From: Bispira polyomma
Lineage: Eukaryota
DNA: 64,000 nucleotides
Direction of reading: 5' to 3'
NCBI GenBank assembly: GCA_965649765.1
Contig: OZ287748.1
Location: 12,338,001 to 12,402,000 of the forward strand
Each line of letters starts with the position of its first letter. Within the stretch, counting starts at the first letter, position 1. The position numbers and the translations under genes are program-made. Below are positions 4,107 to 56,955 of this stretch, one piece after another. Below the pieces are notes generated by a model. That model saw only the letters and a program-made list of their open reading frames with translations. It did not search any database and was not told the DNA's origin.

Positions 4107-4354
4107 AGGGCCTAGTGGTTAGCAAGCATTGCGATTCACAATCACTGGTCTCTCACCTCTGGGCGGCGTGAGTTCGAATCCTGTCGATGCCTATGTGGGA
4201 AAGGTGGTAGTTCCTTACTGTGGGCCGCTGGTTTCTCTGCAGAACCTTGACCGACTGTATGCAGTGTTTCCTCCAGCATTTCCAACTACCCGTCCCAATA
4301 TAACCTACTAAAAGGTACTAGAGTGGACGTTAAATATCCAAATTCAAATTCAAA
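4107..4354 (+). mobile_element. tRNA-derived SINE (family A) inserted in the gag-like ORF
   Basis: A-box-like ggcctagtgg, B-box-like gagttcgaatcc, (AATTCA)n tail; TSD tccatga(t/g)ccagat at 4093-4106 / 4355-4368. Confidence 0.92.
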
Positions 4355-7300
4355 TCCATGAGCCAGATGATGGAAAGAATGGATCAGCGTGTGCAACTCA
4401 CCGAGGCGGTGTTGGCAGCAGATGGAAACAAGAAAAAGGCCAGTAATTTGACTTCTTGCAATAGTTCTGTAAGCAATACGGCTGAAATAGCTACACCCGT
4501 CAATGTAGTAGAAAATGTTGAAAATGTAGTACCCAGTGTTGATTTTCTGAGAAACAACACACAAATTCAAAGCCACGTAAAACTTTGGTTGGCTGAATTA
4601 AAGCGCCTCAACGAAATCCCCAGTCAGGGTAAGCTAAAGTCTCAGAGGGGGAGCGGGATAGATGTTGGTATTAAACGTGGCCACAAAACCATGTCCTTAC
4701 CTGTAGTTTTTGGGCTAGGCCCACGTACAACGACTTGTCTATGAGCCAGAGGGTATGCAGCTTTAGGATTATTCAGGATGAGAAATCAAATTCTGTTAGG
4801 GAAATAATGCTCGAATACATGTCCAACCTTGTGGAGGACTCTGAAGATTTCTCGTGGGAGGCAGCAAAGGCTTGTCATGCTGTTGTGCTCACGCACATGG
4901 AAATGGACAAGCTTTCGTGGTCCGACGTGGACAAATGAAACCATTTAAGAAGGGCCCACGCCCAGAGATACATGTCGAGTAGCAGTACTACTCCGGCTAA
5001 TTCCAGTCGGGGCAGTAAAACAAGTGGCATGGCCAAACAGAGTGCAAATTGCAAATTTTTCCAAGATGGGTCCTGTAAGTTCCCCAGTAGTCACAAGACA
5101 GGAAACACGTATTTTAAGCATGTCTGTGAGACTTGTGGGGGCACCCATAAAAGTAGTGCATGAACCAGAAATGGGGTAAAAAACTGAGGGCCCACTGCAT
5201 TAACGCCCACTGCGTTATACTACCCAATCACCATTTGGGTAGTATGATTTATAATTCAAAATTTCGGAATCAGCATTTACTAGAGAAATCTGTTGTAAAT
5301 AGAATGTTGATGTATTACAGAGGTAAACAGACTCGCTGCACGAACAGCGACACTGTTTCAGTGGGAAGTAAAATATGTCAAAACAAGTCTTGAAAAATGG
5401 CCCCAAAGCCTTTCAATGCAGTAGAACTTTTTTCACAAGTAAACAAGGTGTGAAGCCACCTCAGTCAATGTTTAAAGGTGTCATAAATGCCAAGAATACA
5501 AGCATTGAAAGGGAAAATGGGTGTTGACATTTTGGGTGAATCCCGCTTTGTCTTGGCCACGCGAAACAAAAGAAACAATTCTGAGTCGGGAAAACGGCCT
5601 TCTACCACTGTTGTAAATGAGATGGGGGGTTCAAATTGTGTTACACAATAGATTTCTTCCACTCTGCCAAACCATTGTTGAACCCGGCAGCAATAGAGAG
5701 GAGGGTGGGGGAGGGGGGGGGGGGCAGAACAGGGTGTCAATATTGTATGTAAACAAAACGCCAGTGATCCAACTAGTGGCAATAGTAACCACATATTCAG
5801 CATTTTTGAAATGCACAACAAATTAAGACAAGATAGTAGACAAAATTTTAGGGGCCTCCAGCTTGCTGTTGAGTCGCAGTCAAAGGCTGACAAGTGGAGC
5901 AAATACCTTGAGAACTATTGGGACTGGCAGCTTCCTTTGCTATTAAGTATGGCTTCCCGTTAGATGTATGTAGGGATAACATAAGTCAGTCAGAAAATGC
6001 CAATCACAGTTCTGCAAATTGTTTTCCTGAACACGTGGAAACATATTTAAAGGCAGAATGTCAATTTGGGGCCATTCTGGGTCCTTTCACCAATCCACCA
6101 ATTAAAACCCTCCACTGTTCGGCGATGATGACTCGGGAGAAATCCATCTCGGCTAACAGGCGCGTTATTATCGATTTAAGCTGGCCACATGGCCAGTCAG
6201 TTAATGCTGGGGCTTCTCATGTAGGCGGCTTCATTATGCATTTGCTGCCTCAACTACCAGGGCCTATGACAGGATGTTTCGGCTGTTTGTCTCCTTTGGG
6301 GCCTTTATGAATTGGCCCCCATCTCAGGTGACTGTATTTAAACTCTTATGTTTTTTTGAGTTCCTAAATTATAATTCCATTTCAGCCTCATAAATTGCTA
6401 ACCACCTGTCTACAGTTAAAGCTAGGTGCATCCTGTTTTGTATTAATGTAGAGTGTTTTTCTGATCCAAGAATATCATATTTTAGTCGGGCTTTGGCTTT
6501 ACACAAACCACTGCAACCTAAACTTAAAAGCTTATTTGACATTCCCTTGCTCACGGCCCTTGTGTTGAAATGTGATAGCACATATATGGGCCAAATATTT
6601 AAGGCAATATATACCTGACCAGTTTTTTCAGTTTCTTACAACTGTCAAATTTGTAAACCTGGCTATGTTACTCTATTAATCAAGTAATCTAAAACCATGC
6701 AGACAAACAATGTAAGGAGGCGATGACGGACACCCATGTAAGGCGTCATTTGAAAAATGTCTTGCAGCTCCTGGGTTGCTAGCACAATAATCTTACTTTC
6801 CATGCTTTCCGGCGTTCAGGTGCCACGTTTGCTTTTAATAATAATGTCAACATACAGGACAGTCAACGACATGGCACCTGGCCGTCGGATTGTGTCTGGA
6901 GATATATAACCGATTCAGCCCAGGCTGGTTCTCAGGTTGCAGACTCTTTCAGATTGGCGCTACAGCACTACTCCTAGGTTTCTTGGGTTTGGTACTGGGT
7001 TTTCTGTCTCAGCTGTAAATATAAAATACAATACATTAATGTATAATAAATAAAACTTAAAACTGCTGCTGGGTGCATAATGTACTCTTCACAGTCTTAG
7101 TATAGCTTAAACTTATTACACAAAAAACTTCTGGTATGCCCTCTGAAACTAATTGGCATACTATCAAACCTTCAAGTATTTTAACTTAAGGTAGGGTAAC
7201 CTTACTGGTTCCTACCCAACTTAATTTAAGGTCAACGTTGTCTGACCTCAACTTTCACTAACTAATTTGAGGTGACCTTAGGGCACCCTTAGTGATTCTT

Positions 7301-26671: not shown

Positions 26672-26891
26672 TTTAAATTTGAATTGGGATATTTAACGTA
26701 TATTGGGATGGGTAGTTGGAAACGCTGCATACATTTGATCAAGGTTCTGCACTGAAACCAGTGGTCCACAGTAAAGAACTACCACCTTTACAATATAGCC
26801 ATCGACGTGATTCGAACTCACGCCGCCCAGAGGTGAGAGACCAGTGATTGTGAAGCGCAATGCTTGCTAACCACTAGGCCACTGCGACCCC
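26672..26891 (-). mobile_element. SINE family A, copy carried in unit 3
   Basis: Same sequence and TSD, offset +9110. Confidence 0.92.
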
Positions 26892-29800: not shown

Positions 29801-30235
29801 ATAATATATATATCCAATTTTGGTAGTAAATGTACTACCTCACAAGTACATAACTAATTATGGCAGTGTACGCCTTACAGAATATATCAACTACCAAATT
29901 AAGGTTCAAGTTTCATGAAAAATAAATATATTTTGCTTTGATTACACAAAACACATGCAGAATAATAAACTTTATAATATTTATTAGAAATATAATAATA
30001 ATCGATCTAAATTGATCTTTAGTTAATAAAATGGGATTCCCATGGAAGAGAATGTAAAGAAGTAACAACAACAAATCTAGTTCAGAATTATACAACTACA
30101 ATCACTTTTAAGTGTATATGTTTTAAATCTTTCGAACATTTACATTTAGGTGAAACAGTTTATGAAAAATAATATATTTAAATAAACAATGACAAACAAT
30201 TCAGTGACTTAGTGTGGTGACTTCTGTACAGCTTG

Positions 30236-33200
30236 TTATAATTTGTTAAGATTATTCAGAGAAACATAGTTACTTCTGGGGATATTGCCATTCTCCTTGG
30301 GAAAGAATTCAGAGTCCAAGTCGTCATCGTTTTCAGGGTAGTCTGTCATGGATTGCTCATAGTTCCATTCCTGGTCGCTTTCCCCCACATAAATGAGAAT
30401 ATCCACTTTATTCCCCTCAGCAGGTTCTAAGACCATAGTATCCAGTTTCTCTTTGATTTCATTCAGGGCCACACTTTTGGTCCTCATAATAAGTGTCAAC
30501 CAGTCGATACCTCCACCCTTTTTATCTTTGTCTTTGCCACCTTTGTCTTTGCCACCTTTGTCTTTGCCACCTTTGTCTTTACCATGCTTATCTTTGCCAC
30601 TCTTATTCTCTTTGTCTTTACCATTCTTATCTTTGTCTTCTTTTTTCTTCTTTTTCTTGCTTTTCCCAATGCTCCCCTTCTCACTCTTTTCAATGTCTAT
30701 AGCACAGGACATTAAAGGGTCTTTGACCATGAGGAGGCCTGGGTATGCCTTGTCACTGATCTTCTCATTAGCATTGGCATCCTTGCCTTTCACTTGGTCA
30801 CCTTTCACCTGGCAGTCTATATTCTTCTCCATCTCACTGTTGTTTTTGTCACTTTCACTTTCACTTTCCTCCTCTTCCCTTTCCTCCTCCTCAGACTCGG
30901 GTTCCTCTTCTATATCAAACACAAACTCATACATAGGCCAAGGCTGGCAGAAGTTTTTGATAATTTCCTCTAACTTGGATTTGAAACTCAGCAGCTGTGT
31001 TTCTACATCCGCCTTCCCAGGTTTAAAGACATTTCTGAACATAAAAGGTGCAAACCCCCCTGCCATTGTGGCAAGCATTTGATTGGTGGAGGACATGTTG
31101 TAAGATTCTCCGAAGGATAGCACTACTATGAAGACAAATACTAGAAATAAGATGATGAGCAGAAACTTGCGGGTGGCGTCTATCAAACTCTTGTACACAG
31201 GTCCCGGCGCCCCGGCTGCGTTAATCTGACACACATCTTCAAATAACTTCTTGGGAATACGAGGAGTGTCCTCCTTGTCTATGAAGAGAATGAGGTCATT
31301 GATGTCCCAATGGAAAGGCGTCTTATAGGAGATGTCATCAATAGACTCATACTCTGCCTGGTCACTGGCTTCAGCAGCCTTAAAGCCTCTGTTCTCCTGT
31401 ATGTGGGAAGGTAACTGTGTGTACTGCTCAATGTCTTTACCCAGACGATACTTTATTTCTGAGAAGATAGCTTTATTGAGCTTTAAGTACTTCTTGTTGA
31501 CATTACTGTAGCAGTCATAGCTGTAGAGCACCACCAAGAACAGTAGAGTTCCATACTTTAGCACTGTGGAGGCATTGACTATGATACCCATCATAGTGAA
31601 AGACATGATCTCAGCCACAAAAGTCACTATTTCAGACATGACCAGCATGGCGGCATACAGTGTGAGGGTAGCCATCAGTGCGAGAAAGAAGCTGAAGAAC
31701 CACCTACGGACATTCGGAGAGCAATAAAAGAAGGTCTCTCTGGCAGCCTTTCTTGTTGTTCTTGAATTTAGTCTTTTCAATACATTGTCAGCCTGAAAAT
31801 GCTGAGGTGTGGGCTTGAACTTTTCGCGTCGGTTTTCGACTTGACCATTAAAGGTGTGTAGAAAGATCCTGCAGCTGATAAAGATGAGAGGAAGACAGTA
31901 AATAGAACAGGCCAGAATAGAAACAGGCAGCAGCAGCGGCCAGAAGATGACACCAATAAACAGTCCAAATATACCATATTTTTTAAAAGGCCACAAACAA
32001 TTGCTGATCAGCATTTCGAAGGCTTTTAACATAGACAGGCTCTTCAGGTCTGAAAACGCATCCATGATTGCTTGCTGGAATCGTGTCTTCTTGTCAGTAC
32101 CACTAAAATATGCTATTGTAAATCCTGACATAAAGTAGATGACATAAATAGTGAGGTATATTGGGTGTGTTGGTGTAAGGAACTGCATCAGTCGATAGTT
32201 GTAATACATGACTAGGCCTACTCTATCTGCAGCTTCGTGTCTATCCACAATCTCAGGATTCTCAAATATATAGTAAACTATTAGCCTGATATAGAAGGGA
32301 GTAGGCAAAAATAATACTAATAGGATTCTGCCAAAAAGATTACAAACATCTATCCATTGTTTTTCCTTTGTTTGCCCAGTCTTGATGCAACCCGCAATAT
32401 TTGCATCACAGCAATCACTGAATGCATCTAGTTCCCGCATTTTACACATGAAAATGGCCCTTGATAGACTATCGATCATGCCTACGGGAACAGAATTTTC
32501 CAGCAATAGCTTTCTGTAGTTTACCGTTATGTCAAACTGTGATATTTTAATGGGGATAATCAGTTCCCCGGGTAATTCTGCCACAATGCGCCTGCACTTT
32601 TCAAAATCTCTTCGGTTACGTAGGTCCACCACATGATCAGCATCGATATCCTGAGCCATGTCTCTCCTACAGACAGCTAGCTTTTTGTAGAGAGGTTCTT
32701 TGAGTTTGATATAGTAATCCATGCTGTCCATAGCCGCGGTGTATATCCAGTCTGGCATTAACATTGGTCCAAAGATAAACACACAGATTGTTAGGGTACC
32801 AAGTAAGATGTCTAAGATACTTAGCCACTTATTAGGGAGATCAGCCATACATTCCACTGACTTACTATCAGTTGGTTCATAACAACACCTGTCTGTGAAC
32901 TTGGCCATACCACTGACCTGTTCTATGTACTGGTGACAGACACTGGACTGTCCCTGGTACACCACTACTTCACCGGTTTCATCCAGGTCCCTCAGTACTA
33001 TATCCATCACTGCTAGAATTTTTTCATCCTCTCTAAGTTGACCTAAGCAACCATATGGGAGGTCTTCCAGTTCCACATCCAGTTTGACTATGCCGAATGA
33101 AAGTGTCATGAGGGAGAGGACTCCGTAGTTGAAGGCCAGATTGAGGATGGTCTGTCCGTGACTGGAGGCCACGCGTGCCCAGTTCTGGGGTTTATAGTTC

Positions 33201-33502
33201 CAGGTATTGTTCACTTCTAGTGGGTTTACATCGTAACCTTTGACGGTCATCTTGTACTCTATCAACTTTGAGAACTCGAGGGAGTTGAGGACGACTTGGT
33301 GGATGCCTTTATCCGTAGGACGTAAAAGACACTGGGTGGTGAGGTTGTTACCACTGTACGACCAGCTAAGTTTGTGCAGCAGGGATGAGTTCAGACGACT
33401 GACATCCAGATAGGAAGGAAAACCTACAGGTAATGTATCCACCTGATGGCATAGGACTGCAAGGTAGACCAGTGGGATGGTCCAGACTAAAAGCTTCTCC
33501 AT
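30236..33502 (-). CDS. Uncharacterised multi-pass membrane protein, single coding exon (~1,088 aa)
   Basis: Uninterrupted ORF from ATG at 33502; MEKLLVWTIPLVYLAVLC is signal-peptide-like; Cys-containing N-terminal region; about 9-11 hydrophobic segments; acidic then Lys-rich (KDKGG)n C-terminal tail. Confidence 0.9.
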   Translation of the reverse strand: MEKLLVWTIPLVYLAVLCHQVDTLPVGFPSYLDVSRLNSSLLHKLSWSYSGNNLTTQCLLRPTDKGIHQVVLNSLEFSKLIEYKMTVKGYDVNPLEVNNTWNYKPQNWARVASSHGQTILNLAFNYGVLSLMTLSFGIVKLDVELEDLPYGCLGQLREDEKILAVMDIVLRDLDETGEVVVYQGQSSVCHQYIEQVSGMAKFTDRCCYEPTDSKSVECMADLPNKWLSILDILLGTLTICVFIFGPMLMPDWIYTAAMDSMDYYIKLKEPLYKKLAVCRRDMAQDIDADHVVDLRNRRDFEKCRRIVAELPGELIIPIKISQFDITVNYRKLLLENSVPVGMIDSLSRAIFMCKMRELDAFSDCCDANIAGCIKTGQTKEKQWIDVCNLFGRILLVLFLPTPFYIRLIVYYIFENPEIVDRHEAADRVGLVMYYNYRLMQFLTPTHPIYLTIYVIYFMSGFTIAYFSGTDKKTRFQQAIMDAFSDLKSLSMLKAFEMLISNCLWPFKKYGIFGLFIGVIFWPLLLPVSILACSIYCLPLIFISCRIFLHTFNGQVENRREKFKPTPQHFQADNVLKRLNSRTTRKAARETFFYCSPNVRRWFFSFFLALMATLTLYAAMLVMSEIVTFVAEIMSFTMMGIIVNASTVLKYGTLLFLVVLYSYDCYSNVNKKYLKLNKAIFSEIKYRLGKDIEQYTQLPSHIQENRGFKAAEASDQAEYESIDDISYKTPFHWDINDLILFIDKEDTPRIPKKLFEDVCQINAAGAPGPVYKSLIDATRKFLLIILFLVFVFIVVLSFGESYNMSSTNQMLATMAGGFAPFMFRNVFKPGKADVETQLLSFKSKLEEIIKNFCQPWPMYEFVFDIEEEPESEEEEREEEESESESDKNNSEMEKNIDCQVKGDQVKGKDANANEKISDKAYPGLLMVKDPLMSCAIDIEKSEKGSIGKSKKKKKKEDKDKNGKDKENKSGKDKHGKDKGGKDKGGKDKGGKDKDKKGGGIDWLTLIMRTKSVALNEIKEKLDTMVLEPAEGNKVDILIYVGESDQEWNYEQSMTDYPENDDDLDSEFFPKENGNIPRSNYVSLNNLNKL

Positions 33503-36500
33503 TTTTATGGTAGTTGTCACTGACTTATTACATATGGATAATTATAGAACTAATACTATCTTCTCGCTATAAACCAGTAAATGTTCACCTGTTAAAACTG
33601 TTTAATTATATTATAACACAGTTTCTTTTACACGAGTTTGATGGTGTTGTTACTGTTGTCAAATATACTATGTTAGTACCAACCTATAGTTACTGGCTTG
33701 TAAACACCATTGACAGTATAATTAATATACAAGTGTTTATCTTTCTCTTCAGTTTCTCGCTCTCACAGTGAACACTAGTTTACAATAATCTCTGGTTCAA
33801 CACTCTTTGGTCTGTCTTCCCAAAAATATGAAGTACACTTGACTTTCGGATTCAAATCAGAAATTCCAAATCAAAGAAAGCCTTACTTATTAGTTTTGAC
33901 CGTGGGTTTTTACATACCCTTGAAATCTCTCTACCCCAATATATAATAAGGTACTGTGTTTTTATGACTGCGCCACTACTCAATGGCTTCTCCTCCATAG
34001 ACGTCCTTTCAGTGTGGGGTGGGGTGCAATTGGCTAAGTAAAAACTCCATTTATGAGATTTCTTTTCACAAGTATTCACCAGTTTTGTTTAGTCTTCAGG
34101 CGTTTCTTTATTCTATTCATGTATTATTTATCAATCCATAAATCAAATAAATCATGTTTTAATATCCTATTTTAAAAATTGCAGATTTGCATAAAAGATT
34201 CTTATTCTATAAATAAACAGTTTCTGTATTTCTGCTTTATTTTCTTTTAACAGTTGAAGTTAGCAATACACCTTTGCTCTGATATACATGTAGGTTATTA
34301 TATAAGTATTCGATTTTACACTGTTATATACAACCAATCACTGAGATACCTACACAATTATCACTCTTGACATCCCACACTCGAGGTCTCTATCATTCTA
34401 TTTATCTCTACTGATTCATCTCCACTCATTTTTGGCCCATGTATACAACTAGCCAACTAGATAATTTTATATGTACATACAAATGTTTATTATCTCTGGT
34501 CCTGCTTGATCAAAGTCATATCAAATGACATTAAGTGATCATCGTTTATTTGCTGTGTTCTATATTAATGGTAACCGGTAACTGGTTTATATTCAAGTGG
34601 TTAATAACCTTTTCAGCAAAATAACATCTGTGATGTTTGGGCTGACCCCTTTCAAGATACAGAGCTATAGATTCTGAAGTCTATACCTTATTCCACATGA
34701 AGAGACGTTATATTAATACTAGATTGTCACAAGCCCAAGGTATATCCCTATTTTATACACGTGTTTGAGCTCGGCTAAGATCGTCACATCTTATATAGGA
34801 GAACACATACCATGTACCAATATTGCCAAACTATTTTGGGTGTCAGAAGAGGGTTGTTCGTGAATCATCGTGGAATGCATATTCATGAGGTAGTTTCCGT
34901 TTTATTTTTTTAATGGCCTTACATATCCTAGTGGCGGCCTGTTCTAGAAGATGACAAGCGTCTACAACAACGTGGTCACCCAAGTTTTATAGCTATGTCT
35001 GCGTGGTGGCTCTGTCGCTTTTATTATATATAAATATCAGCTTTTATTTACACTCTATCAACATGTAGCCAACACACCGGGCTGGTATGGACTTGTATGC
35101 CATATTTCTGTGTTGGTGGACTTCATTAATCTCTGTCGCTATGGTTTATTGGCAAGAGAAGTTTTAGTAGCAAGCATCTAAACATGGTTACAACTGTGTA
35201 AGTTGTGGAGAGGGGGGGGGGGGGTGTATCTCTGATGTGTTATTTATGGTGCCTTTGTATAAACATATGGAGCTCTCACCTGTACACTCCTATACAAAAA
35301 GGTCCACCTTTCACAACTGACAGGCCTAATCCATTCATACTCTCAAGGTCTGATTAGCATAAACATCATTGAGAAGCTGTATTTCTTATTAATCACTCCA
35401 TATAGAGACAGACCATTGATCTCACACTCTGATCTCCTAAGTTCCCGGGTGACTGGGTCCTGGTTTCCCTGAAAGAAATCTTTTAATTATGAAAGAGATG
35501 TACCGTCATTACTCTGGCACAGAATCAGGGACAACCTAAACGATTCTGTACATATTTCTCTGTGGCACCTGATGCAACTACCAACAAGGAAGCATTCTCA
35601 ATAAGTGGACGTCATTAAAAATGAATTTATGGCTGATGAGTTTGGATTATAGCAAAAATTAATTCCCAGTGAAAATTTTGTTAAATTTGTATTGATCTCG
35701 TTACTAAAAAATTAGCCAATAGTGAAAACTATTCCAATGAATTACTTAAAAATATTGTAAATTGATGAAAAATTTTTCTGTCCCAGCTAAAATTTTATCA
35801 ACTGATAAAGTATTTCTTTTAACTGAGTTAACACTATGGTTAAGGTACAAACATGAAACATCTCTCTATAAAATTAAAACTATAAAACAGTGTGTATCTT
35901 GAAGACCCCACTTAGTGAGGCCTGATAAATAAGGGTTGTAAGACCTTCAAATGGTATGTACAAATGTACAAGTACACCAATTAGTCTGTATATAAACCCA
36001 TGCACTAGTGTGGTGTGTGAGATTAGCCCAGTCAGTCACCATCACTTAAGACTTTTCTCCTCAATCTATTAATACATGGGGTTAACTCACGTCTTTCTCA
36101 TTGGTATAAGATTTAGGAAAAGACACACTGCACATTAAAGACACGGTTGGAAAGGCAGGACATTCTTAAATCAACAGAACAAGATAAACTCCTTAGTTTG
36201 ATGACAAAACAAAAACTCATTTTAATGTGTATGTGTGAAGGGGGGGGGGGGGGGGCATTGAAGCACGGCTTGAGCTCAGTTATTAAATGTTAAAAGGGGG
36301 TTTAGTATGTCCAGTATAAGTATATAAGGACGAGTGGGCCTCACACGGTTATATTTACACTTCTAAATGAGCTTACACACCAAAAATGGCCACTTCAATG
36401 ATGAACAAATCTTTTATAATGGATGAATGGACCGGGGTTTGTCCTTTTATTTACTTGAGTTTTTATGATTGGCCCTCTATTATAATCTATATATAAAAAT

Positions 36501-37560: not shown

Positions 37561-39886
37561 GTAGATATATGAGTATAAATCTGATTACAGCTACAATGCC
37601 TATGTATAAATACATATTATGAAAAATCACATACTACTACAGGGTTTTGTTAAAGTTATATACAAGTAATGTAGCACTTATAGCACGCAGACAGACCCTA
37701 GTTTACATATACACACACAAACACACATTCCATAACTCAGTTTATTCTTCATCTTTCAACTTGTGTCTATAAAAATGCATCCCCCGTCATCTGTAGACCT
37801 GTCTTTTTAGTACACCAAAGTATTGTGAAACATACTCCAAAAGAACTTTTTATTGATTTCCACCCACCATGACACGCGCGTGTATTATTGTCCCACTGAT
37901 TATTTTAATGAGGGATTTCCGGTGATGAGGGAGAGGGTTTACGACAACCAATTCATTCACAAACACGTGTATAAAAAGAGCCGACGCCCTAAAGTAAAAT
38001 ATTGCCTAATTTAGAGAGATGTGTTTTTTTTCTGTAAAAACGTCATTTCAGACAATTTAATTTATATTTGGCATAGTCACGCAATGCAGCCATCATATTT
38101 CCATATTAAATTAAAAAAAAAAAAAATGCCAACATTTATGTGAAGATTACATCAAATTGATTTGCTAAACTATACATGACATGAAATCCAAACACTAATA
38201 TTAATATTCCATGACACCAGGTGGGTACTAAAGTGAATATTACTTGAAATTGTCCACTTCAACTTTTTTTTTTTAATTTGGAATTACAAATTGAAGTTTT
38301 GAAGAACACTTCAAATTAGAGCTACACAGGATTAATGACAAGAGGAAAACAAATAACCAATAACAGACACAAAAGTGTTAATAATTGTTACAGTCTATCT
38401 CACAAATGCTTCAAACCACCTTACAGTAGTGCAACGGTGTCAGACATTCCTATGTTGTAGTCCAAAATTATACCATATCTTTGGACGACTCAGAATCAGC
38501 AACACCATGTTAAATGCGTACAGTATGAGCAGCATAAGGTCTGAGTTACCCACGCTGACTCATTGTGTTATAAGCAACCCTGTATGAGGGCATTATGGTG
38601 TCACCCTTAAATGGGGAAGGCAAACCCCTTTGCTCATTAGCACATAATTTCGATTTCTTATCTCGATTTATTGACTCAGTACGTAAACTTTTTGACTTAT
38701 TATCTTGATCTATTAACTCAATAAGTCTACAATTAAAACATCTCTTTGATGTGGTCCTAATAGTCTTCTGTATCAAATACTATTATTTACTTCTTGTTAT
38801 CAATTAAAATCTATATTTGATGTGATCCTAATAGTCTTCTGTACCTAATAGTTACTACTCTGTACTTCTTGTTGCAAGACAAGTTGACATTTGTTTTAAA
38901 ACATGGCAATGTCACCCTTCTGCATGACTAATATTATTCAGTTCCCCAGGGTCCATAGTCAAGATATTAAATTTAATAAGGTGGAGTAACACAAAAAAAT
39001 ATTGCGGTAACGATTTATTAGTAACTAAATTTGGCATGAGTGTTTACAATCAGGTTCAGTCGGGGTGAGATAGGGAGCCTCCAGGTTACAGTAAAACTAC
39101 ATGTGTGTGTTTTAGTATAGCTTTGCTGATATGTAGGCATGGCCTGTTCTTATATAATGTGTTACTGGATAATGGGTAATGTGGCCTGGTTCACTAGTGT
39201 ATACACATTTGTAGGTATACACACCATATGATAGTGGTGTGATCTTTAGTAGCTCTCATTTCAGTGCACTGTATATAAATCATTAGCTGGCTATGTGTTG
39301 GCACATGTTTGGCACATAACTGTCTGAAGTATTTGTATTAATTCTGTCAAATGCTCAGGTTGTCTGGGCAAGTTTTGGTTAAAATGTGTAGGAAGTTTAG
39401 CACACATAGTTCAGAGTAAAGTTCAACTTTCTAACCCAAGGTTCTGGGGGGCCAGACAGTGGTCTCTATATAAACCCAGATATTTGTGAAACCAAATGAG
39501 TTTAAAATAAGTACCAGTGCTGATGTAAAAATAATTAAGAGTGAGGGCTGACATTACCTCCCACTGGTACTTCCTTTAGACACTGCTGTACTGGCTGTTA
39601 GATTGTTGGTCGGACAAACTTGTGATCTTGTACGGACAAACTTAACCACTGAGTTAATGGTGACCATGGTATCCTTGTGCATGAGGATTGGTATCAATAG
39701 ATACTAGTGTGAGATAGTAACTAGTGGTTGGCTCATAGTCTCCAGGTGTGTAGGGGAGATTGATGACTATTTACTTGGTAATTAGTGCTCGGTCCCAGTG
39801 CCACTGTATGGTGAACTTATTTAACAGTCAGGACGTGTCTTTAGCAGAACGAAGTGCATCGTCACTATTTTTTTAAAAAATATATT

Positions 39887-41026
39887 ATGCAAGATCAGCC
39901 TGATTGTACCCCCAAGAAAACTGCATTTTGCTGTAGCTGCAGTACCACACATTTGAAGGCAGTAGGAGGCGACTGCCCGTTTGCTGTGTCCTCAGGCTCC
40001 ATGGCAGATCACCCTGATGCTGACCTGCAGATGTCCCAACCTCAGATGTCTCTCACTCCAGGCCAGATGTCTCCAGCAACACGAGATGGTCACTCTGTGC
40101 ATTCAGAGGAAGGTAACCCAGTCGATGATAAGCTCGATGCTATTCTTAGGCATTTAACGAGACTTGACGATAAGATTGAGCAAGTTAAGACAGATACCCA
40201 AAAAGATTTGAATCTGAACAAACGTCGTGATTTGGCTGTTACATCCCCTCCACGCACAGGGTACGTTCCCGACCCTGCTCCTCGTTTACCAGGCTACACA
40301 GCTGCAGAGGCTGAAAGTACTGACAGATTAGTTGTTCCCTCAGCAGCATTCTTGCGTGATAATATTGGCTTGCAGAAGCAAGTGGATCGTCAGTTACAAG
40401 TGTTAGACAAAAATGACAAACAAGAAGCTCAAGGTAAAAAAATTAAATCTGGGTTATTCAGAAATGGTGATAATAATGTTAAAAACGAAATCAGTTGGCC
40501 GCATGAACATTGTTTCGGATCGGATCGTTCTAGCATTGCTTATGATAACCTTACTGCTCTGCAGTTCTGTCAGGGTTTTATTGGATGTGTTTTGGCGGAA
40601 TCAAATTCACAAGTTAGGAAAAATATGTTAAAACATTGCCAGTATTTGTTTCAGGACGCCCAAGAAACCAATTGGTTCACCACTAAAACGGCACATAAAA
40701 TTGTCCTTTTGAAAATCGAAAGAGGTAAGCTCTCCTGGACGGATTTTCAGGCAGTTAGCTCATTGAGAGCTAGGTATACTCAGAGGGCCATACAGCCAGT
40801 TCACAATTTCAAAAAATCTAACTCGAAGCCGGCTGTGCTTTGTCGATTTTTCAACAGAGGGCATTGTACACATGACAATGATCATATAGAGGACAATACT
40901 ACACAGCGCCATGCTCGTGCATATTGCTTCAAAACAGTCAAGCGGTTTATAACTTTGCATGCGGAACCCAACTGCTTTCGTAAACAAGGCCACTCAGCTA
41001 AAACATCAAAAAACGAAGGAACCTAG
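39887..41026 (+). CDS. Gag-like ORF1 of the YR retrotransposon
   Basis: First ATG at 39887; N-terminal C-x2-C-x3-H, coiled-coil DKLDAILRHLTRLDDKIEQV, WPHEH, C-terminal Cys/His knuckles CRFFNRGHC..H. Confidence 0.85.
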   Translation: MQDQPDCTPKKTAFCCSCSTTHLKAVGGDCPFAVSSGSMADHPDADLQMSQPQMSLTPGQMSPATRDGHSVHSEEGNPVDDKLDAILRHLTRLDDKIEQVKTDTQKDLNLNKRRDLAVTSPPRTGYVPDPAPRLPGYTAAEAESTDRLVVPSAAFLRDNIGLQKQVDRQLQVLDKNDKQEAQGKKIKSGLFRNGDNNVKNEISWPHEHCFGSDRSSIAYDNLTALQFCQGFIGCVLAESNSQVRKNMLKHCQYLFQDAQETNWFTTKTAHKIVLLKIERGKLSWTDFQAVSSLRARYTQRAIQPVHNFKKSNSKPAVLCRFFNRGHCTHDNDHIEDNTTQRHARAYCFKTVKRFITLHAEPNCFRKQGHSAKTSKNEGT

Positions 41027-41043
41027 GTACTTGTGCCAGTGTT

Positions 41044-42945
41044 ATGCAAGGGGACGTTGTATATTCAAAATTTTACTATAATTCTGATGTAAATCATTAT
41101 GGTAGATCAAAAATTATGTATAATGATTTTAAAAACAATAGTGCTCACACTGGCAAGGTATCTGAGGCGATTTGTCCAAGAGTGTTTAAGAATAGTGGTA
41201 AAAGTTATAATAGTTTTAAAATTGATAAAGTACAAACAGTACAAAACCCTAGTGCACAATACCATTCCATGATTACAGATGTTAATCTTAGTGCAGAGAC
41301 AAAGTATAATGTAAATAGTGACTATGGTGCTTGTAGCCTGCTTGACGTCAGTTTCCCCCCCCCCCCTGATATAATTGACATTAATTCTAATGCATGTGTA
41401 AACCAGAATTATAATTGTGAGAGTGATAAAGCTAATGAAATACATATGATCCAAAACACTGGTAGGGGAATACAGGAGGGATTCCCTGACGTCATGCAGG
41501 GGGGCACTCACATGGTGGGAAATTCCATTATTGATAATACATGTATGGAAGAACACGTGCTTGATGATGTGGTTAGTGATCAAGGTGCAGAGGCACTTAA
41601 CACATTGCAAGGCTTTGGCTTTGTTAGACACACAATTCTCTTATATGTACTCGAGGATAAATCCTCCACACTCGAGGTGTTGTCACTTGAACAGTGGGTT
41701 ACTGAGGCCTATAACATTGTTGCTAATACTGGTGTTCCAAATTATAAAGGCGCTCGGTTGCAAGTCAATGCTGAACTCAACCTTAAATTATGGTTTGATC
41801 TGTTAAAAAATTACCATGATCCTATATTGTTTGAGTACCTTCGTTTTGGTTTTCCTTTGTGTATTGATTATAACACATTCCAGTACACCACTGTTTGTGA
41901 CAACCACCCTAGTGCAATTCAATTTCCTCAGGACGTGGAAGTCTATTTTAAAAAGGAATTACAGCATAATTCCATAGCAGGCCCCTTTGAAATACCTCCT
42001 ATAGCTCCCTTACATGTGTCTCCTTTGTTGTCACACCCTAAAACAGGAGATACTCGACGTATTATAGTGAATCTTTCTCACCCTTTTGGTGATTCAGTTA
42101 ACAGTAATGTCTTAACAGACGAGTATGATGGCTATAAGTTCACTCTTACATATCCTTCAGTAGACAACATTGTGGATGAGATTGCAAAATTAGGTTCTTC
42201 TGCGCTTTTATATAAGCTGGACGTAAGTCAGGCTTTTAGAAATTTGCGCATCGATCCCAGGGACTATAGTGTTATGGGGCTGCATTGGGCAGGAAAGTAT
42301 TTTATTGACGTCAGTGTTGCGTTCGGTTATCGGCACGGTAGTGCCCAAATGCAACGCATTGGCGACTTCCTACGTCACATCATGGCCTCAAACGGCTACA
42401 CTATGTTTCCGTACATCGATGACGTCATAGGCGTCCAAAATCAACAACAAGCAAATTCTGCGTTTCATATGCTTAAGGCATTAATTGAAAATTTGGGTTT
42501 ACCCCTTAATCTCAAGAAAATGGCTACTCCTCAGCACGAAGTGACGTGTATGGGGATACTAATTAATACAAAAACTGGAACATTGCGTATACCAGATGAC
42601 AAACTTCTCGAAATTGTAACTATCTGCAGAGAATGGCAGAATAAACATTTTACACATAAGTTGTTAAGAGTGCGTTGTGACAATGAAGCAGTGGTACATG
42701 TGTTAAATAATGGTCGTACTAGAGATCCTCATTTGCTTTTATATGCTCGTTCTATATGGTGCTTGGCTGCAAGCCATGATATTTGGTTACAGTATTCACA
42801 TATAGCTGGGGTCCAAAATGACAAGGCAGATTGCCTTAGTAGGTGGTTTTCCACCAATGTCAACAAAGATGTTGTGAATGAATTGATAAAATGCCAATGG
42901 TATCAAGTCCTTGCAGACTTTTACATTCCAAATTATGATATTTAA
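41044..42945 (+). CDS. RT/RNase H ORF of the YR retrotransposon (internally deleted)
   Basis: FGFPL, RRIIVNLS, KLDVSQAFR, FGYRHG, PYIDD; joins directly to the RNase H C-terminal part RCDNEAVV...HIAGVQNDKADCLSR. Confidence 0.9.
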   Translation: MQGDVVYSKFYYNSDVNHYGRSKIMYNDFKNNSAHTGKVSEAICPRVFKNSGKSYNSFKIDKVQTVQNPSAQYHSMITDVNLSAETKYNVNSDYGACSLLDVSFPPPPDIIDINSNACVNQNYNCESDKANEIHMIQNTGRGIQEGFPDVMQGGTHMVGNSIIDNTCMEEHVLDDVVSDQGAEALNTLQGFGFVRHTILLYVLEDKSSTLEVLSLEQWVTEAYNIVANTGVPNYKGARLQVNAELNLKLWFDLLKNYHDPILFEYLRFGFPLCIDYNTFQYTTVCDNHPSAIQFPQDVEVYFKKELQHNSIAGPFEIPPIAPLHVSPLLSHPKTGDTRRIIVNLSHPFGDSVNSNVLTDEYDGYKFTLTYPSVDNIVDEIAKLGSSALLYKLDVSQAFRNLRIDPRDYSVMGLHWAGKYFIDVSVAFGYRHGSAQMQRIGDFLRHIMASNGYTMFPYIDDVIGVQNQQQANSAFHMLKALIENLGLPLNLKKMATPQHEVTCMGILINTKTGTLRIPDDKLLEIVTICREWQNKHFTHKLLRVRCDNEAVVHVLNNGRTRDPHLLLYARSIWCLAASHDIWLQYSHIAGVQNDKADCLSRWFSTNVNKDVVNELIKCQWYQVLADFYIPNYDI

Positions 42946-42951
42946 TTGTAG

Positions 42952-43913
42952 GCATTCCCTTGGCCTCCAATCTACTATCTCTGGCTTGCAACCGAATTCC
43001 TAGTGCACTGAGGCAGAAAACTACTCAAGCATACAAGCAACAATTTAGACTGTTCTTGGCTCTGGCCATTTATTTACAAATACCCGATTGTACTCAGTTG
43101 TCATACATCTTGATATTTTTGGAATATCTTCATCAATGTGGCTTTAAACAGCCTACTATTGCAAATTATCTCTCTGTGCTTAGGCACTATTTTGGGTTTT
43201 ATAGTCTTCAAGCTGCAGCTCTAGAACATAAAAAAGTCACAATGATTTTGAGGGCCATGGCCATTAATGCTCCCTATTCACCAAAATTTAAAGGTGTTAT
43301 ATCTATTCCAATATTGCAAAATATTGTAAAGAGGTGTGACAAGCTGTCTCATGGGTATGTGTTTAAAGCATTGTTTTTAGTGGCATTTTTTGGTTATGCT
43401 AGACTGTCAACCTTGGTTCCTAGTTCTAGAAAAGACATTTCGGATAGGAGTCTATTAAGGAAAGATTTTATTGATACCTCTTTGGGAATGCATATTGTAT
43501 TTCCACGTACTAAAACGCACCAGGCGTATTACCAAAGTCACCCTATTTCTATTCCTTCTTCCTCTTTATGTCCAGTTCAGGCTGTAAAAAACATGTTTCG
43601 GTTAATACCGTCTTCTCCGAGTTCATTGGCTTTTGTCATTCCAAACAAAAAATCTTTTACTCCTTTATTAGCTTCCAAGGTTAGACAGACCCTGGCTAGA
43701 ATCATAACCTTGTTGGGGTATGAACCTGCACATTTTACATTCCATGCATTTAGAAGGAGTGGTGCTACATTTTCATTTAATAATAATGTGGCATTTGAAG
43801 ATATACGTGTACATGGTAGTTACAAGAGTGATGCAATCTGTACTTATCTTCAAAATTCATCTGCTGCTCCAAAAGTGGCCATTTCTTTCCAAAAACTTTT
43901 AATCAGTACTTAA
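42952..43913 (+). CDS. Tyrosine recombinase (ORF3), no in-frame N-terminal ATG
   Basis: Catalytic R (YARLS), K (RTKT), HxxR (HAFRRSGA), H (VHGSY), Y (CTYL). Confidence 0.9.
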
Positions 43914-45425
43914 TTACTACCCCTACAAATTTTTGGGCTTGGGTCAGCCCCCTTTTATTCTCTACTGCAATTTTGATCTGGCCTCTATTCATAATTAGAT
44001 GGCTTTATATGTTAGTGTTTCCAACTTCTTGTTGTATATTAGAACCAACATTTGTTGTTAGTATTTAACAATTTATGTTATGTTTAAATATGTTTAAAGT
44101 AGAAAATAAATTGCCCAAACTATAATTCACATTGTTATTAATCTTGTATGTAATTGGATTGCATCTTTCCTTCTCCAACTTCCATCTTTGAGAGCCCTCC
44201 ATGGGCGCACATGATAGTTTGCCTTTGGTCTATCTTTCCTATGGATTGGATTTCCATAGTTACTTGGTCATAATACTCACACTTTTAGTATTGCTAGCAA
44301 TCGAACTATAGACTGAGTAGCATCTACTAAGGTTGTATATACAGTTTAAGTTTTAAAGTAAGTGCATGAGGTCACCATAGCATAAGGTTGTGAATTTGAT
44401 TAAAGTTTGAAGTTAAGTATGAAGTGAGATAAACGATTACATTATGTACTATATAACGTGTTTCATGTGAAAAAAGATTGGAGCTCATTTGAAGAATATT
44501 GAAGAGTGCACAATGATTTTATATGAGCTAGACTACGAGACAGAAAATCATTGTGCGCTCAATAAGATAGGGTTGAGCAAGCCTTGAAGAGAGCCTCGTG
44601 CAAGCAAAAGATCGCGTGAAGCTGACATTACAATGATCCTCCTTAATCACCTAATTACACGGACACAGGGGATATGATTAGACTGCATCATTGTTCATGA
44701 TATATATTACACCCAATCTATGAAATTGTCCAATTCGTGAAATTTTGAGCTGCCCATTTCACAAAATGAGTAAAAAAATTATTTCCCATTTTTTTGGTTT
44801 ATACATTGTTCACACAGACATTAAGCAAATACATATACAATGACAAAAGAAAGTACTAAATTAACATGGAAATCATACATTTATATCCAACAATACATAC
44901 GGCTGAATTTAATCGAGGTACTTTTCATTTTATTTGGAAAAAGAAATCTTTCTGACTTTTCAACTTTTATTTCTGGCCAAAACATCCTCAGAAAGAGGAG
45001 AGGCAAACAATGAGGGTCATGTGATGCCACCGGACCTGCCAATTAATAATGTGAACAATTGTGTTGATATATGCTTACTTGTGCACTAAAATTTAAATGG
45101 TCAAATATAGGAATAGTGTTTTGTTGGTCAAGTGTCAAATATACTTGAGTACTCATTAAATATGAGTATATTATATTCATACTTATTATGCTGTGTTTTG
45201 AATTTTTCTACTTTATTACTGTGACTAAACAATTAAATTTAGTTTTATCATCATAGACAATTAAGTATCTTTGCATTTGACTGATAAGTAAATAAGCTCT
45301 TACTTTGGACCACCTGAAGTGACACTTTTAGTGTTGTTGTATAAGTACATTAAGGCAACTATTATTTCAAGTGTAGTTCATTATTTGTTGTTAATTTTTG
45401 GTGAAGACTTTGTAAAACAACAGAG

Positions 45426-48400
45426 ATGTGTGACCATCTCATTTCTGTGTTGCGGAGTGTCACAGTTGAGCCAGTGACAGTGTTGTTCTATTTGGCGACC
45501 AGTTTCCAAATGCCCACAGATGACGCACTCTGGTACAGGAAGGTCTGCCTTCAGCTTTATAATGATAAAGAACTGTGTGCAAACATCAATGCCAATGCAA
45601 GCTATGCTGAGATGGAAAAAGAAGTGCAAAGTGTGAATTCTCAATGGAATTTCTTCAGACATGCTTCATTTGCAGTGACAGCCATGGTGACATCATTTCT
45701 CTATGGCTCCTGGAGTGATCGTATCAGCAGGAAGTTGCCTATACTCTTACCACTGTTTGGACTGGTGCTTGGTTGCTCTATCAATATAACATCTGCTATC
45801 TTTATCACATCGTCACTGTATTTTCTCTTGATGTCCAGTGCCCTGCATGGTATTTTAGGGGGAATGTTGACCATGTTAATGTCTACCATGAGCTATATCA
45901 GTGACGTCAGCACACCAGAGTCAAGGACACTGCGCCTCTCCATACTCTATGCCAGTGCTAACACAGGTTCTTTTATAGCATACACATTGTCTGGTGTGAT
46001 ATTTGATCTGACTGGATTTGTTGGTATGTATTCTATATGTCTTGGTTTAAGTGGCATGAGTATAGTGTATGCTGTTTGTTTTATCAAAGATATTAAGCCT
46101 CAAGGTTCAGAAAATCACAGACTGCAAAATGAGGACTCATTAGAGGAAAAAGAAACTGTCAAGCCCACTGATGGAGAGACAAAATCAAATTGTTGCAAAA
46201 GATACTGCGATGTCAAACATGCGAAAGAAGCCTTCTTGGTGACATTTCAGCATCGCGACAATAACCACAGAGTGCACATTGTGACAGTTCTGGTGGTTCT
46301 GATATTTTATTCAATAGGTTCTTGTAAGTACTATATATATTAATATCTTATTGATCCCACATGTTATAATTCCAATTAAATTTATTATTTCAAAAAGATG
46401 TTGCAAAGTACCTTCAAAGACTTTTCAGATTTTGATTGACCCATCCAGAGTTGTCTTGTGTGTTAGATGTGTTGTCACAGATGTTTTTGGCACATAACGG
46501 TGTTAGAGAAGTAGGAGTTCTGACTCCTTTACTTTTCAATATTTATATAAATCAGGTAAGTATTTTATAACGATGATATTGTATTGAGTAGTCCTTCAAC
46601 AAAAACACTATTCTACATATAGGGGTAACCAGCCTGATGTTTTATTTAATGAATCTTAGACTATGCACATGGCAGTCTGTCACAATTATGACGAAAAAGG
46701 TTCTCTTTATAAAGTCTGAAAGTGAAATTTTAACACTGGGTCCAATGCCTGTGATAATTCTTAATGGGTATTTACCTATAAAACCTGAAGTTTCTTGTTC
46801 ATATGTTGTAGGTACAACTGTGCAGTACCTGTATTTAAAACATCCACCCTTGGGGTTTAGTCAAACTATGTATGGTTTCTTTGAAGGATGGTCCATGTTC
46901 ATGAGACTGACAGTGAATGTTTTCTTTGTACCCATGTTAAAGAAATGTCACTTACCTGACATTCCACTACTCATTTTAGCACTGATTTCACATGTTATGT
47001 CAGTGGTGCTGATGGCATTCAGTAAATATACATGGATGGTGTTCTTGGGTGAGTCTATTCTTCCTTAGGATAAGATTTATCTTCACATTTTTGTACATTT
47101 TAGGAACAAACAAACGATCCACATAGCACAAATATTGAATAACATATTTGGCTAGATCACTCTTGACTAACATCAAGTTATACAATTTTACTGAAGCCAT
47201 ATTACATAAACTAAGGAAATCCAAAGATATATTTTATCTGCTCTTATTATTTTCTCCAGAAGTTTGTTAAAAACATCAATACGGTCATGTGTTTACTGTT
47301 GTAGTGTTACCTGCTTTTAGTTTGATATATATAGTTACATTGTTCTCTATATTTTTATCAGTTTATTTTGGTTTTTAGTTCCAGTTGTGGCCTATATGTC
47401 TTATGGTATATTTACTTTTTTGAGGAGTTTTATATCCAGTATGGTAAGGACAGATGAGTTAGGTAGGTGTAAAGCTAATGTAATAAAGAAGGCAGTACTT
47501 TAGATCAATCCTATACACTAGTCAACATAAGACATAGTAATCCAGATAACACATTATTAAACATTTTAATCTTTATTAGTTTTATATATTGTTCTGATTT
47601 CTTAACAACTATATGAATGATATAATTTAATGAAATGCTATAGTCACTATCTAGCCAGTACCATGACGTATCAATCATATACCACTCTTCACTTCAACCT
47701 CTTAATGGTTAGTCATGTCTTACAAGGTAAAATCTTTGCCGTGTTTGCTGTCCTGGAGAACCTTGGTAACATCCTGGCCATAGCTCTCTTCTCCTACTTC
47801 CTGTATCCTCAGACCATTGATATATTTGCTGGATTCACTTATCTATTCCAAGGCTTTATCATGCTGATACCTATTGGCATTGCAGGGTAAGTCATAAGCT
47901 TTAGTTAGTTATCATGCCGATACCTATTGACATTGCAATGTGAGTCACACAAGCTTTATTAGTTAGTTATCATGCTGATACCTATTGGCATTGCAGTGTA
48001 AGTCGTTCGCTTTAGTTAGTTATCATGCCGATACATATTGGCATTGTAGTGTAAGTAACAAGTTAATTTTAGTTATTTATCCTGCTGATACCTATTGGCA
48101 TTGCAGTGGAAGTCAAACAAGCTTTAAGTACTTCAAAATAGATATTTTACTTAAACAAACTAATGTGCAATACTACAACTTGTATATCAAAAACATATTA
48201 TACAGGTAAACATATATATGTAAGTAGCTCATAAATATGTGGTATCCATATAGTATTAATTTCAGCACCAGTTTTTAAATAAGTATTGGTACATGCAAAT
48301 AGTAGTACTATCACTTTGGCATATTAAATATTACAAATAATTGTCTAATTATGTTACAAGTGTGTGTGACTCAACATACTGTCTCTTTTAGATAAATGTT

Positions 48401-52376: not shown

Positions 52377-52582
52377 TTAACAATCTCTTAGGTAACTGCA
52401 CTTAATACATTTAATACCTGATACTACTTGACTGATAGCTAGAGCTTAGTTCTACCTTTGATATTAATCACATGGTTAGTATCTGGATAAGTAGTGCAAA
52501 AAAGGACTGTCTATTACTTGTCAGTATGGTTTTTGGTATTGTTTTCAGTACTTGTCATAGAGAAAGCAATAAGGACTAAAAT

Positions 52583-53917
52583 ATGTCAGAAATGTATTCA
52601 AAGGTAGTTTCTCTGATTCGTAGTTTAACAGTGGAGCCAGTGACAGTGTTGTTCTTTTTGGCGACCAGTTTCCAAATGCCCACTGATGATGCACTCTGGT
52701 ACAGGAAGGTCTGCCTTCAGCTTTATGATGATGCAGAACTGTGTGCAAACATCAATGCCAATGCAAGCTACGCTGAGATGGAAAAGGAAGTGCAAAGTAT
52801 GAACTCTGAATGGAACTTCTACAGAAATGTTTGTTTCTCCCTACCATCCATGTTGACTACATTTCTCTATGGCTCCTGGAGTGACCGTATCAGCAGGAAG
52901 ATAACCATACTCTTACCACTGTTTGGGGTGTTGGCTGGTTGCTCTGTCAATATAGCATCTGCTATCTTTATTACATCATCCCTTGGTTTTCTCCTGATGT
53001 CTAATGCCTTGCAAGGTATGCTTGGGGGAATGATGACTATGTTGATGTCTACCATGAGCTACATCAGTGACGTCAGTACACCAGAGTCAAGGACACTGCG
53101 GATCTCGGTCCTCTATGCCAGCTCAAACATTGGTTCACTTTTGGCATACACTGTTTCTGGTGTTATATTTGACCATACTGGTTTTACTGTCATGTATTCA
53201 CTTTGTATTGGTGTTGTGCTTCTGAGTATATTCTGTGCTATTTTCTTTCTCAGAGACATTAGACCTACCGATGGTCGTGTGGAAAATACTCAAAATGAAC
53301 ATTTAGGAAAACAACAGGTGGATATTACACCCAGTGACAGCAGAGGAATAAAAGCTAGTTGCAGCAAATTCTGTGACATCAGTCATGCTAAAGAAGCCGT
53401 CTTAGTGACATTTCAGCATCGCGAGAATAATCACAGAATGCATATTGTGGCAGTCCTAATGATTCTGTTGTTTTATATGGTTGGTGGCTGTAAGTACATG
53501 AGTATGTCTTTATATTAATTTTGAAAGTGAATTTAAACAATGAAGTACATCATTGTACAAACACGTATGTGTGTTATATAGGTTGTGCTTTACTTGTGTC
53601 ATCCTAAGTCCAATGCTTGTAGTTATCAGGTGGAGATATTTACCTAAAGCCTGTAGTTTATTATTCATCTGTTGTAGCTACAGCTGTACAATATCTGTAT
53701 TTAAAACATCCACCCCTGGGGTTCAGTCAGACCATGTATGGCTTCTTTGAAGGCTGGCATATTTTCATAAAACTGACAGTCAATGGTCTCTTTGTGCCCG
53801 TGTTAAAGAAGAGGTATAATGTGGCTGACATCCCACTCATGATCATTGCACTGATTTCACACATGATGTCCACAGTGGTACTGGCACTGAGTACATACAC
53901 CTGGATGGTCTTCATGG
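52583..53917 (+). CDS. SLC46/PCFT-like transporter, paralogue 2; exons 1-2 only (52583-53489, 53678-53917)
   Basis: Strong similarity to paralogue 1, with the same phase-1 intron positions; exons 3-6 not recognised in this window. Confidence 0.85.
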
Positions 53918-56729: not shown

Positions 56730-56888
56730 ATAGAGCCTGGATAGGTGTTTGAGCTCTGTTGAGTGAAGGGCCCAATATGAGAATATAAAGGGTAAGGGGG
56801 CATTAGGGTAAGGGTGCCAGGTAAGAGTCAGGCGGAGTCAGGCGGAGTCCATCTTTCCACCTTAAGTCTTAAAAAAGGTGAATTTTTT

Positions 56889-56955
56889 ACAGCCTCTGAT
56901 GAGAACACCCACTGGAGTTCGAAATATATTTTATACCAATAATATATAAGGCAGT
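56889..56955 (+). ncRNA. Type I hammerhead ribozyme in the 5' pLTR
   Basis: Stem I acagcct/aggcagt, CUGAUGA 56896-56902, stem II GAAC/GUUC, GAAA 56921-56924, stem III uauauu/aauaua, AUA cleavage triplet ending at 56948. Confidence 0.88.

What the first reader, a model, noticed from the sequence alone, without database searches (positions are those of the whole stretch)
40430..42962. Tyrosine recombinase probably expressed by splicing to the Gag N-terminus
Seen: the YR ORF has no ATG for roughly its first 100 codons but is preceded by ttgtAG|gc att ccc ttg (AG at 42950-42951), a phase-1 acceptor. Gag has CAA G|GTAAA (GT at 40434), a phase-1 donor. The diverged element has CAG G|GTAAGC (GT at 4629) at the homologous QGK position. 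Joining gives an in-frame Gag(N ~182 aa, with coiled-coil)-YR protein that skips RT. Inference: a retrovirus-like subgenomic spliced mRNA makes the integrase as a Gag fusion.
Basis: partly seen in the sequence, partly recalled or inferred. Interest (0 to 1): 0.7.

Follow-up and report, generated by a model that had tools for sequence, protein, structure and literature searches.

The report
Retrotransposon splices Gag onto recombinase
This jumping gene, and its distant relatives in other organisms, carry matching RNA-splicing signals in the middle of their structural gene and just before their DNA-inserting enzyme, so they likely make that enzyme as a spliced hybrid protein rather than by the ribosome slip proposed in a review, a step not yet seen in RNA.

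Summary
Observation confirmed. 39032-44315 is a Ngaro-like tyrosine-recombinase (YR) retrotransposon. GT 40434 and AG 42950-51 are both phase 1; YR has no Met until codon 102. Across 20 families in this genome, the donor Gly is GGT+A in 18 of 18 readable families. None of 59 other conserved four-fold sites exceeds 0.77 agreement. A phase-1 YAG sits at the YR start in 20 of 20 families, while the RT-to-YR frame takes all three values. Distant metagenome relatives repeat this: best donor phase 1 in 13 of 13, best acceptor phase 1 in 37 of 44. Public RefSeq models from amphioxus and a hemichordate are about 500-600 aa Gag-N/YR fusions; in the two I could check, the join is at the homologous Gly. 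Best reading: a spliced mRNA makes Gag(N)-YR, and pol is likely made by a -1 frameshift. No RNA run was available, and no precise intron-less copy was found. The mechanism was not found in 7 literature searches; the key reviews were unreadable, and one is quoted as proposing frameshifting. This scan has reported the same idea on other DNA of this and other genomes.

The parts
39032..39536 (+). A1 terminal repeat (starts TGGCATGAG)
   Evidence: Shared left end of family copies; A occurs twice in the full-length copy L037; A-to-B joint 39536->43941 in contigs
39887..41026 (+). gag-like ORF, 379 aa: putative N-terminal Cys/His motif, coiled coil 78-117, linker, helical domain ~200-300, C-terminal Cys/His-rich region
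   Evidence: no Pfam hit; no clear fold match
39887..40433 (+). predicted coding exon 1 (Gag N-terminal 182 aa + 1 nt)
   Evidence: the donor falls in the low-confidence linker 177-199 of the model
40434..40439 (+). predicted 5' splice site AAG|GTAAAA, phase 1, inside the Gly codon of QGKKIKSG
   Evidence: GGT+A in 18 of 18 families versus 59 control sites; -2/+5 compensation p=0.005
41008..41014 (+). A AAA AAC slippery heptamer in gag frame, predicted -1 frameshift into RT/RH
   Evidence: same heptamer near the gag stop in 7 of 18 family representatives
41002..42945 (+). RT/RNase H ORF (YIDD), lying inside the predicted intron; this copy has an in-frame ~390-nt deletion in the RNase H part (junction 42646-42653)
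   Evidence: Pfam RVT_1; deletion seen against siblings
42930..42951 (+). predicted 3' splice site, T-rich tract + TAG, 6 nt after the RT stop, phase 1
   Evidence: YAG in 20 of 20 families, T at -5 and -6 in 16 of 20 each
42952..43913 (+). predicted exon 2: tyrosine recombinase, 320 aa, SAM-like core-binding domain plus R-K-H-R-H-Y catalytic motifs; first own Met at codon 102
   Evidence: Pfam PF02899, PF00589; motifs; family profile matches Cre
43941..44315 (+). B terminal repeat with AATAAA at 44105; this copy lacks the A2-B2 pair
   Evidence: a joint 39031->44316 fitting an empty site is seen in 3 of 3 runs
4334..6965 (+). decayed YR element of a distant clade (KSQRGG type) with the homologous donor GT at 4629; most of RT and the acceptor are deleted
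   Evidence: related clade L201-L213

Best explanation
This is a Ngaro-like retrotransposon whose conserved phase-1 donor in gag and phase-1 acceptor before the recombinase likely remove pol as an intron, giving a predicted ~500-aa Gag(N-half)-YR fusion protein. Unspliced RNA would give Gag and, likely by a -1 frameshift at A AAA AAC, Gag-RT/RNase H, and would be the genomic template. The spliced RNA would supply the start codon the recombinase lacks. The Gag N-half (coiled coil and Cys/His motif) probably tethers the recombinase to the Gag particle so that it reaches the cDNA. Shown: element structure, site positions, phases and their conservation. Inferred: the splice itself, the frameshift and the tethering role.
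For: Donor: GGTA in 18 of 18 families at 85% nt clustering. The Gly six codons on is GGG 9, GGT 7, GGC 2. Of 59 conserved four-fold sites none has more than 0.77 of one base (median 0.47); 15 other Gly sites use T at 0.356, giving p~9e-9 if families are independent. The base after GGT stays A while the residue changes among K, R, N and I. All 3 families lacking A at -2 have G at +5; 14 of the 15 with A at -2 lack it (Fisher p=0.005). In 60 further Gag loci, 31 of 31 with an in-frame Gly were GGTA, 4 motifs had no Gly and 25 had no motif. Acceptor: YAG in 20 of 20 families, 77 of 81 copies, and 46 of 60 further loci. RT-stop-to-AG distance is 3-19 nt with YR frames 12/5/3. Other organisms (80 metagenome loci): best acceptor phase 1 in 37 of 44 dereplicated elements, p=1.6e-7; best donor phase 1 in 13 of 13, versus 19 of 52 in slid control windows; RT-to-YR frame 12/11/8. 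Public models: of 6 hits over 450 aa among the best 150, 3 are Gag-N/YR fusions (Branchiostoma hybrid XP_078682739.1 and XP_078682969.1, Glandiceps XP_077986280.1); 4 more Branchiostoma proteins of 540-600 aa. Two were checked against full-Gag models and join exactly at the Gly before K-x-x-x-S-G. Starting at Met102 would drop the SAM-like domain at residues 23-87.
Against: No RNA junction was observed. No precise intron-less genomic copy was found among 200 fetched stretches plus the window copy or in 30 scored DNA candidates of 377; the one near case, L133, is an imprecise deletion. 10 of 20 families have a Met near the YR start, and 4 of 20 have YR in the -1 frame with a slippery-type heptamer in the overlap. 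The RefSeq models are predictions whose RNA support I could not see. Three other public models join YR to RT instead (P0143, P0108, P0172). Families are related, so the p-values are optimistic. One distant copy has GGC (L206). In 7 of 44 metagenome elements the best acceptor was out of phase.
Confidence: 0.88

Rival explanations
1. YR is translated from the unspliced RNA by programmed ribosomal frameshifting or readthrough at the RT/YR border, as proposed for Ngaro by Poulter and Butler 2015.
For: The review is quoted in PMC13003380. YR is in the -1 frame in 12 of 20 families, including the window's, and 4 of those have a slippery-type heptamer in the overlap. One RefSeq model is RT-YR (P0143).
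Against: In the window the overlap is 4 nt with no slippery site. 9 of 20 families have under 7 nt of overlap and 3 have YR in frame behind the RT stop. In metagenome relatives frames are 12/11/8 and 19 of 31 have no overlap. It does not explain the invariant GT in gag.
Confidence: 0.05
2. The acceptor is real but pairs with another donor (in the 5' leader or at the end of RNase H), or YR starts at its own nearby ATG; the gag GT has another role.
For: 5 of 20 families have a Met 4 codons after the acceptor. GenBank models P0108 and P0172 join the RNase H end to the same YR start.
Against: The conserved Gly at the RNase H end (RT 603) uses all four third bases. 10 of 20 families have no usable Met, and 28 of 31 metagenome elements have no Met in the first 15 residues after the acceptor. 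Donor and acceptor phases match in this genome and in the metagenome relatives.
Confidence: 0.05
3. The motifs are by-products of protein conservation and AT-rich codon bias.
For: The window's donor alone is unremarkable, and the G-K context forces GGN-AAR.
Against: Third positions elsewhere are saturated. At the acceptor the codon before G is always N-Y-A although the residue varies. In L236 the donor survives as AGT AAG, a Ser codon.
Confidence: 0.02

Closest known systems
Ngaro-like YR retrotransposons (order DIRS); definitions read in passages of PMC9210276, PMC3783388, PMC8547959, PMC6681497
   Same: gag, RT/RH, YR in that order; A1-ORFs-B1-A2-B2 split direct repeats in relatives; no methyltransferase domain found
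   Different: No hydrolase ORF after YR (longest frame under 90 aa in 7 copies). YR expression is described only as probable frameshifting (Poulter and Butler 2015, seen as a quotation in PMC13003380), whereas here the evidence points to splicing onto Gag.
Plant Ty1/Copia spliced subgenomic shGAG RNA (PMC5580714, abstract read)
   Same: Conserved alternative splicing inside a retrotransposon sets protein output
   Different: There the spliced RNA makes Gag only; here it would skip pol and fuse half of Gag to the integrating enzyme
Retroviral and gypsy env, and foamy virus pol, expressed from spliced RNAs (recalled, from no call)
   Same: The downstream-most gene is reached by splicing out the upstream genes; Gag-Pol by -1 frameshift in many retroviruses
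   Different: The spliced product here is the recombinase and carries about 180-235 Gag residues, not a short leader

Membership tests
Ngaro-like retrotransposons | gag, RT/RH and YR ORFs on one strand in that order | tested here: met
Ngaro-like retrotransposons | split direct repeats A1-ORFs-B1-A2-B2 | tested here: met
   Full set in family member L037 and in L047, L050, L080, L087, L096, L104. The window copy itself has only A1 and one B.
Ngaro-like retrotransposons | no methyltransferase after RNase H | tested here: met
   Pfam on 4 long RT/RH ORFs shows RT and RNase H only, with RNase H ending near the stop
Ngaro-like retrotransposons | RT/RH phylogeny groups with reference Ngaro elements | not tested
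   No reference Ngaro sequences were in hand
PAT-like retrotransposons | methyltransferase domain together with split direct repeats | tested here: not met
   No Dam/MT hit in 4 RT/RH ORFs and little room after RNase H
DIRS1-like retrotransposons | inverted terminal repeats with an internal complementary region | tested here: not met
   Self-comparisons show direct repeats; no terminal inverted repeat in the window element
Elements with a spliced subgenomic mRNA | junction-spanning RNA | not testable with these tools
   No RNA holder listed; runs X1-X3 are contigs that also cover the flanks

The most novel reading that the evidence does not exclude
Across a wide animal branch of Ngaro retrotransposons, pol lies inside one ancient phase-1 intron, and the integrating enzyme is made as a Gag(N)-recombinase fusion whose Gag half loads it into the particle. 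This would be a three-protein expression plan (Gag, frameshifted Gag-Pol, spliced Gag-YR) that replaces the frameshift model in print and means annotated stand-alone Ngaro YR proteins lack about 180 residues.
Probability: 0.75. Interest if true: 0.72.

Novelty: new variant of a known kind. Interest (0 to 1): 0.62.

Why it matters
How YR retrotransposons make a recombinase with no start codon has been left as a guess (frameshifting). A conserved splice gives a precise, cheaply testable answer. It defines the likely true protein for biochemistry, predicts that host splicing controls mobility by setting the ratio of genomic RNA to recombinase mRNA, and suggests how an element without a protease or Gag-Pol-integrase polyprotein gets its recombinase into the particle. 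It would also correct many gene models in animal genomes.

Tried and rejected
RNA evidence: no RNA holder listed. Runs X1-X3 (at most 2 samples, 1 study) are contigs, and no 40433->42952 joint was among those shown (15 shown and 6 hidden; 15 shown and 20 hidden); this is no evidence either way. Intron-less copies: gag and YR hits were cross-referenced by eye from 7 protein searches and 120 stretches were fetched. Two had Gag-N near YR, both imprecise deletions (L112, L133). First homologue search: 44 hits, none over 370 aa. IMG/VR: no relative. Gag fold: best Z 5.3, no clear match; protein atlas uninformative. Alternative donor at the RNase H-end Gly: rejected. L273, a 561-aa YR frame, shows no recognisable Gag-N by eye and was not counted. 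Literature: 7 searches found no report of a Gag-YR splice. Goodwin and Poulter 2004 and Poulter and Butler 2015 are not held, and Poulter and Goodwin 2005 and Repbase reports were not seen; they may mention it. No supplements were read. Rows dropped before counts: families 5 and 20 (no readable Gag) from the donor test; 21 of 80 metagenome loci without a matched N-terminus or anchor, 14 near-duplicates and 1 without an AG from the acceptor test; only 13 of 80 had a readable Gag motif.

Full report
What is there. The window lies in a 1.04-Gb, 75-contig genome. Three overlapping frames at 39845-41026, 41002-42945 and 42939-43913 encode a gag-like protein, an RT (Pfam RVT_1) and a tyrosine recombinase (PF02899, PF00589). 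Comparison with sibling copies fixes the element at 39032-44315, with repeat A at 39032-39536 and B at 43941-44315. One sibling (L037) and six relatives have the A1-ORFs-B1-A2-B2 layout. No methyltransferase or hydrolase was found, so it is Ngaro-like by structure; a tree with reference elements was not made. The window copy lacks A2-B2 and has an in-frame RNase H deletion.

Observation. The GT at 40434, the AG at 42950-51, the phase match, the first YR Met at codon 102 and the GT at 4629 are all as stated. The donor alone is moderate: 6 of 9 match to a recalled consensus, with 3 of 207 nearby GTs better and 14 equal.

Donor test. I fetched 80 of the 125 YR matches in the genome, spanning 96 to 42% identity; with the window they form 20 families at 85% nt. 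In 18 families Gag could be read, and all 18 have GGT followed by A; per copy, 64 of 64 with a Gly there, 17 of 81 unscored. The next Gly uses GGG 9, GGT 7, GGC 2. Across 59 conserved four-fold sites in Gag, RT and YR the commonest third base has median share 0.47 and never reaches 0.9. The sites also show the exon/intron trade-off typical of real 5' splice sites (own knowledge): all 3 families without A at -2 have G at +5, and 14 of 15 with A at -2 do not (p=0.005). Among 60 more Gag loci, 31 of 31 with a Gly were GGTA; 4 motifs lacked the Gly and 25 gave no motif. In the distant KSQRGG-type clade, to which the decayed element at 4.6 kb belongs, 12 of 13 loci were readable: 9 show GGT-A in frame just before the motif, one is frameshifted, one has GGT-A several codons further up, and one has GGC.

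Acceptor test. YAG lies at the same phase in 20 of 20 families with T-rich positions -5 and -6, in 77 of 81 copies and in 46 of 60 further loci; most misses are truncated or indel-shifted copies and 4 are point changes. The distance from the RT stop is 3-19 nt and the YR frame relative to RT is -1, +1 or 0 in 12, 5 and 3 families. The acceptor is thus tied to the YR frame, not to RT. Against this, 10 of 20 families have a Met near the YR start, and 4 have a -1 overlap with a slippery-type heptamer.

Other organisms. A metagenome scan returned 80 loci at 26-42% YR identity. After dropping 21 without a matched N-terminus or anchor, 14 near-duplicates and 1 without an AG, the best pyrimidine-tract acceptor was phase 1 in 37 of 44 (background 46%; p=1.6e-7). 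In the 13 with a readable Gag motif the best donor within 75 nt was phase 1 in 13 of 13, versus 19 of 52 control windows; RT-to-YR frames were 12/11/8, and 19 of 31 have no overlap at all. A profile search returned six proteins over 450 aa among the best 150. Three are RefSeq Gag-N/YR fusions of 502-549 aa from a Branchiostoma hybrid and Glandiceps talaboti, one of them at four loci; one is RT-YR and two are Gag-RT-YR models. Four more Branchiostoma proteins of 540-600 aa look alike. For P0102 and P0157 the full-Gag models show the join at the Gly that aligns with the window's QGK. These are gene predictions; I could not see their RNA support.

Mechanism. Shown: the architecture and conserved, phase-matched signals. 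Inferred: unspliced RNA gives Gag and, through A AAA AAC at 41008 (7 of 18 representatives), Gag-RT/RH; spliced RNA gives about 182+320 aa Gag(N)-YR. The donor falls in a low-confidence linker between the coiled-coil region and the helical domain (mean pLDDT 57). The acceptor precedes the whole Cre-like recombinase, so neither domain is cut. A tethering role for Gag-N is a guess with no test.

What failed. No RNA holder was listed. The three runs are contigs with no such joint among those shown. No precise intron-less copy was found.

What is known. Passages read: PMC7192593, PMC9341512, PMC8547959, PMC3783388, PMC9210276, PMC2632668, PMC4157794, PMC3266345, PMC6681497, PMC13003380 and bioRxiv 10.64898/2026.05.21.726589; abstract of PMC5580714. 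PMC13003380 quotes Poulter and Butler 2015 that YR translation is probably by programmed frameshift. PMC3783388 notes that the YR ORF may be in frame or shifted in all Ngaro groups, which fits a frame-independent mechanism. Seven searches found no Gag-YR splice; two primary papers were not held. Eight earlier scan notes reach the same or a related reading on other DNA. They are not independent evidence; they led me to look for the frameshift statement and to search for intron-less copies.

Verdict. A real, strongly conserved feature of a known element type, with an expression mechanism I did not find in print and that contradicts the stated guess. Confidence 0.88, interest 0.62, new variant of a known kind.

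Noticed in passing
window 39032-44315; L031-L040, L066, L067: The window copy and 11 of 12 examined family copies end at the first B repeat (A1-ORFs-B); only L037 has A1-ORFs-B1-A2-B2. This may reflect B1/B2 recombination or a regular replication product.
   Followed up: partly
A1 repeat of L031, L032, L034-L038: Copies carry tandem duplications of about 95-185 nt inside A1 at about three different positions; L037 has one in A1 but not in A2. Possibly a footprint of strand transfer.
   Followed up: no
window 39031/44316: Contigs of all three runs join 39031 to 44316, which fits an empty site, so the insertion is probably polymorphic.
   Followed up: partly
window 41008-41014: A AAA AAC in the gag frame 6-24 nt before the gag stop in 7 of 18 representatives; a -1 frameshift candidate for pol.
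   Followed up: partly
window 42646-42653: This copy has an in-frame ~390-nt deletion in the RNase H region between 8-nt overlapping ends, not shared by the siblings examined.
   Followed up: yes
window 39887-39980: Near-invariant C15, C18, H22, C30 at the Gag N-terminus, a possible zinc-binding motif that would travel with the fusion.
   Followed up: no
window ~16400-29900: Three near-identical tandem copies of a 4555-nt unit containing 59-nt and 25-nt minisatellites.
   Followed up: no
window 30236-33541 (-): 1101-aa open frame with low-complexity repeats and no Pfam hit.
   Followed up: no
window 45405-46343 and 52580-53518: MFS transporter-like exon with a duplicated copy about 7.2 kb away, 78-85% alike.
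   Followed up: no
window 56788-60413: RT plus GIY-YIG fragments with inverted repeats, probably a Penelope-like element.
   Followed up: no
window 4109-4357 and 9420-9667: A ~250-nt repeat in inverted orientation brackets the decayed YR element; further copies near 17608, 22163, 26718 and 48950.
   Followed up: no
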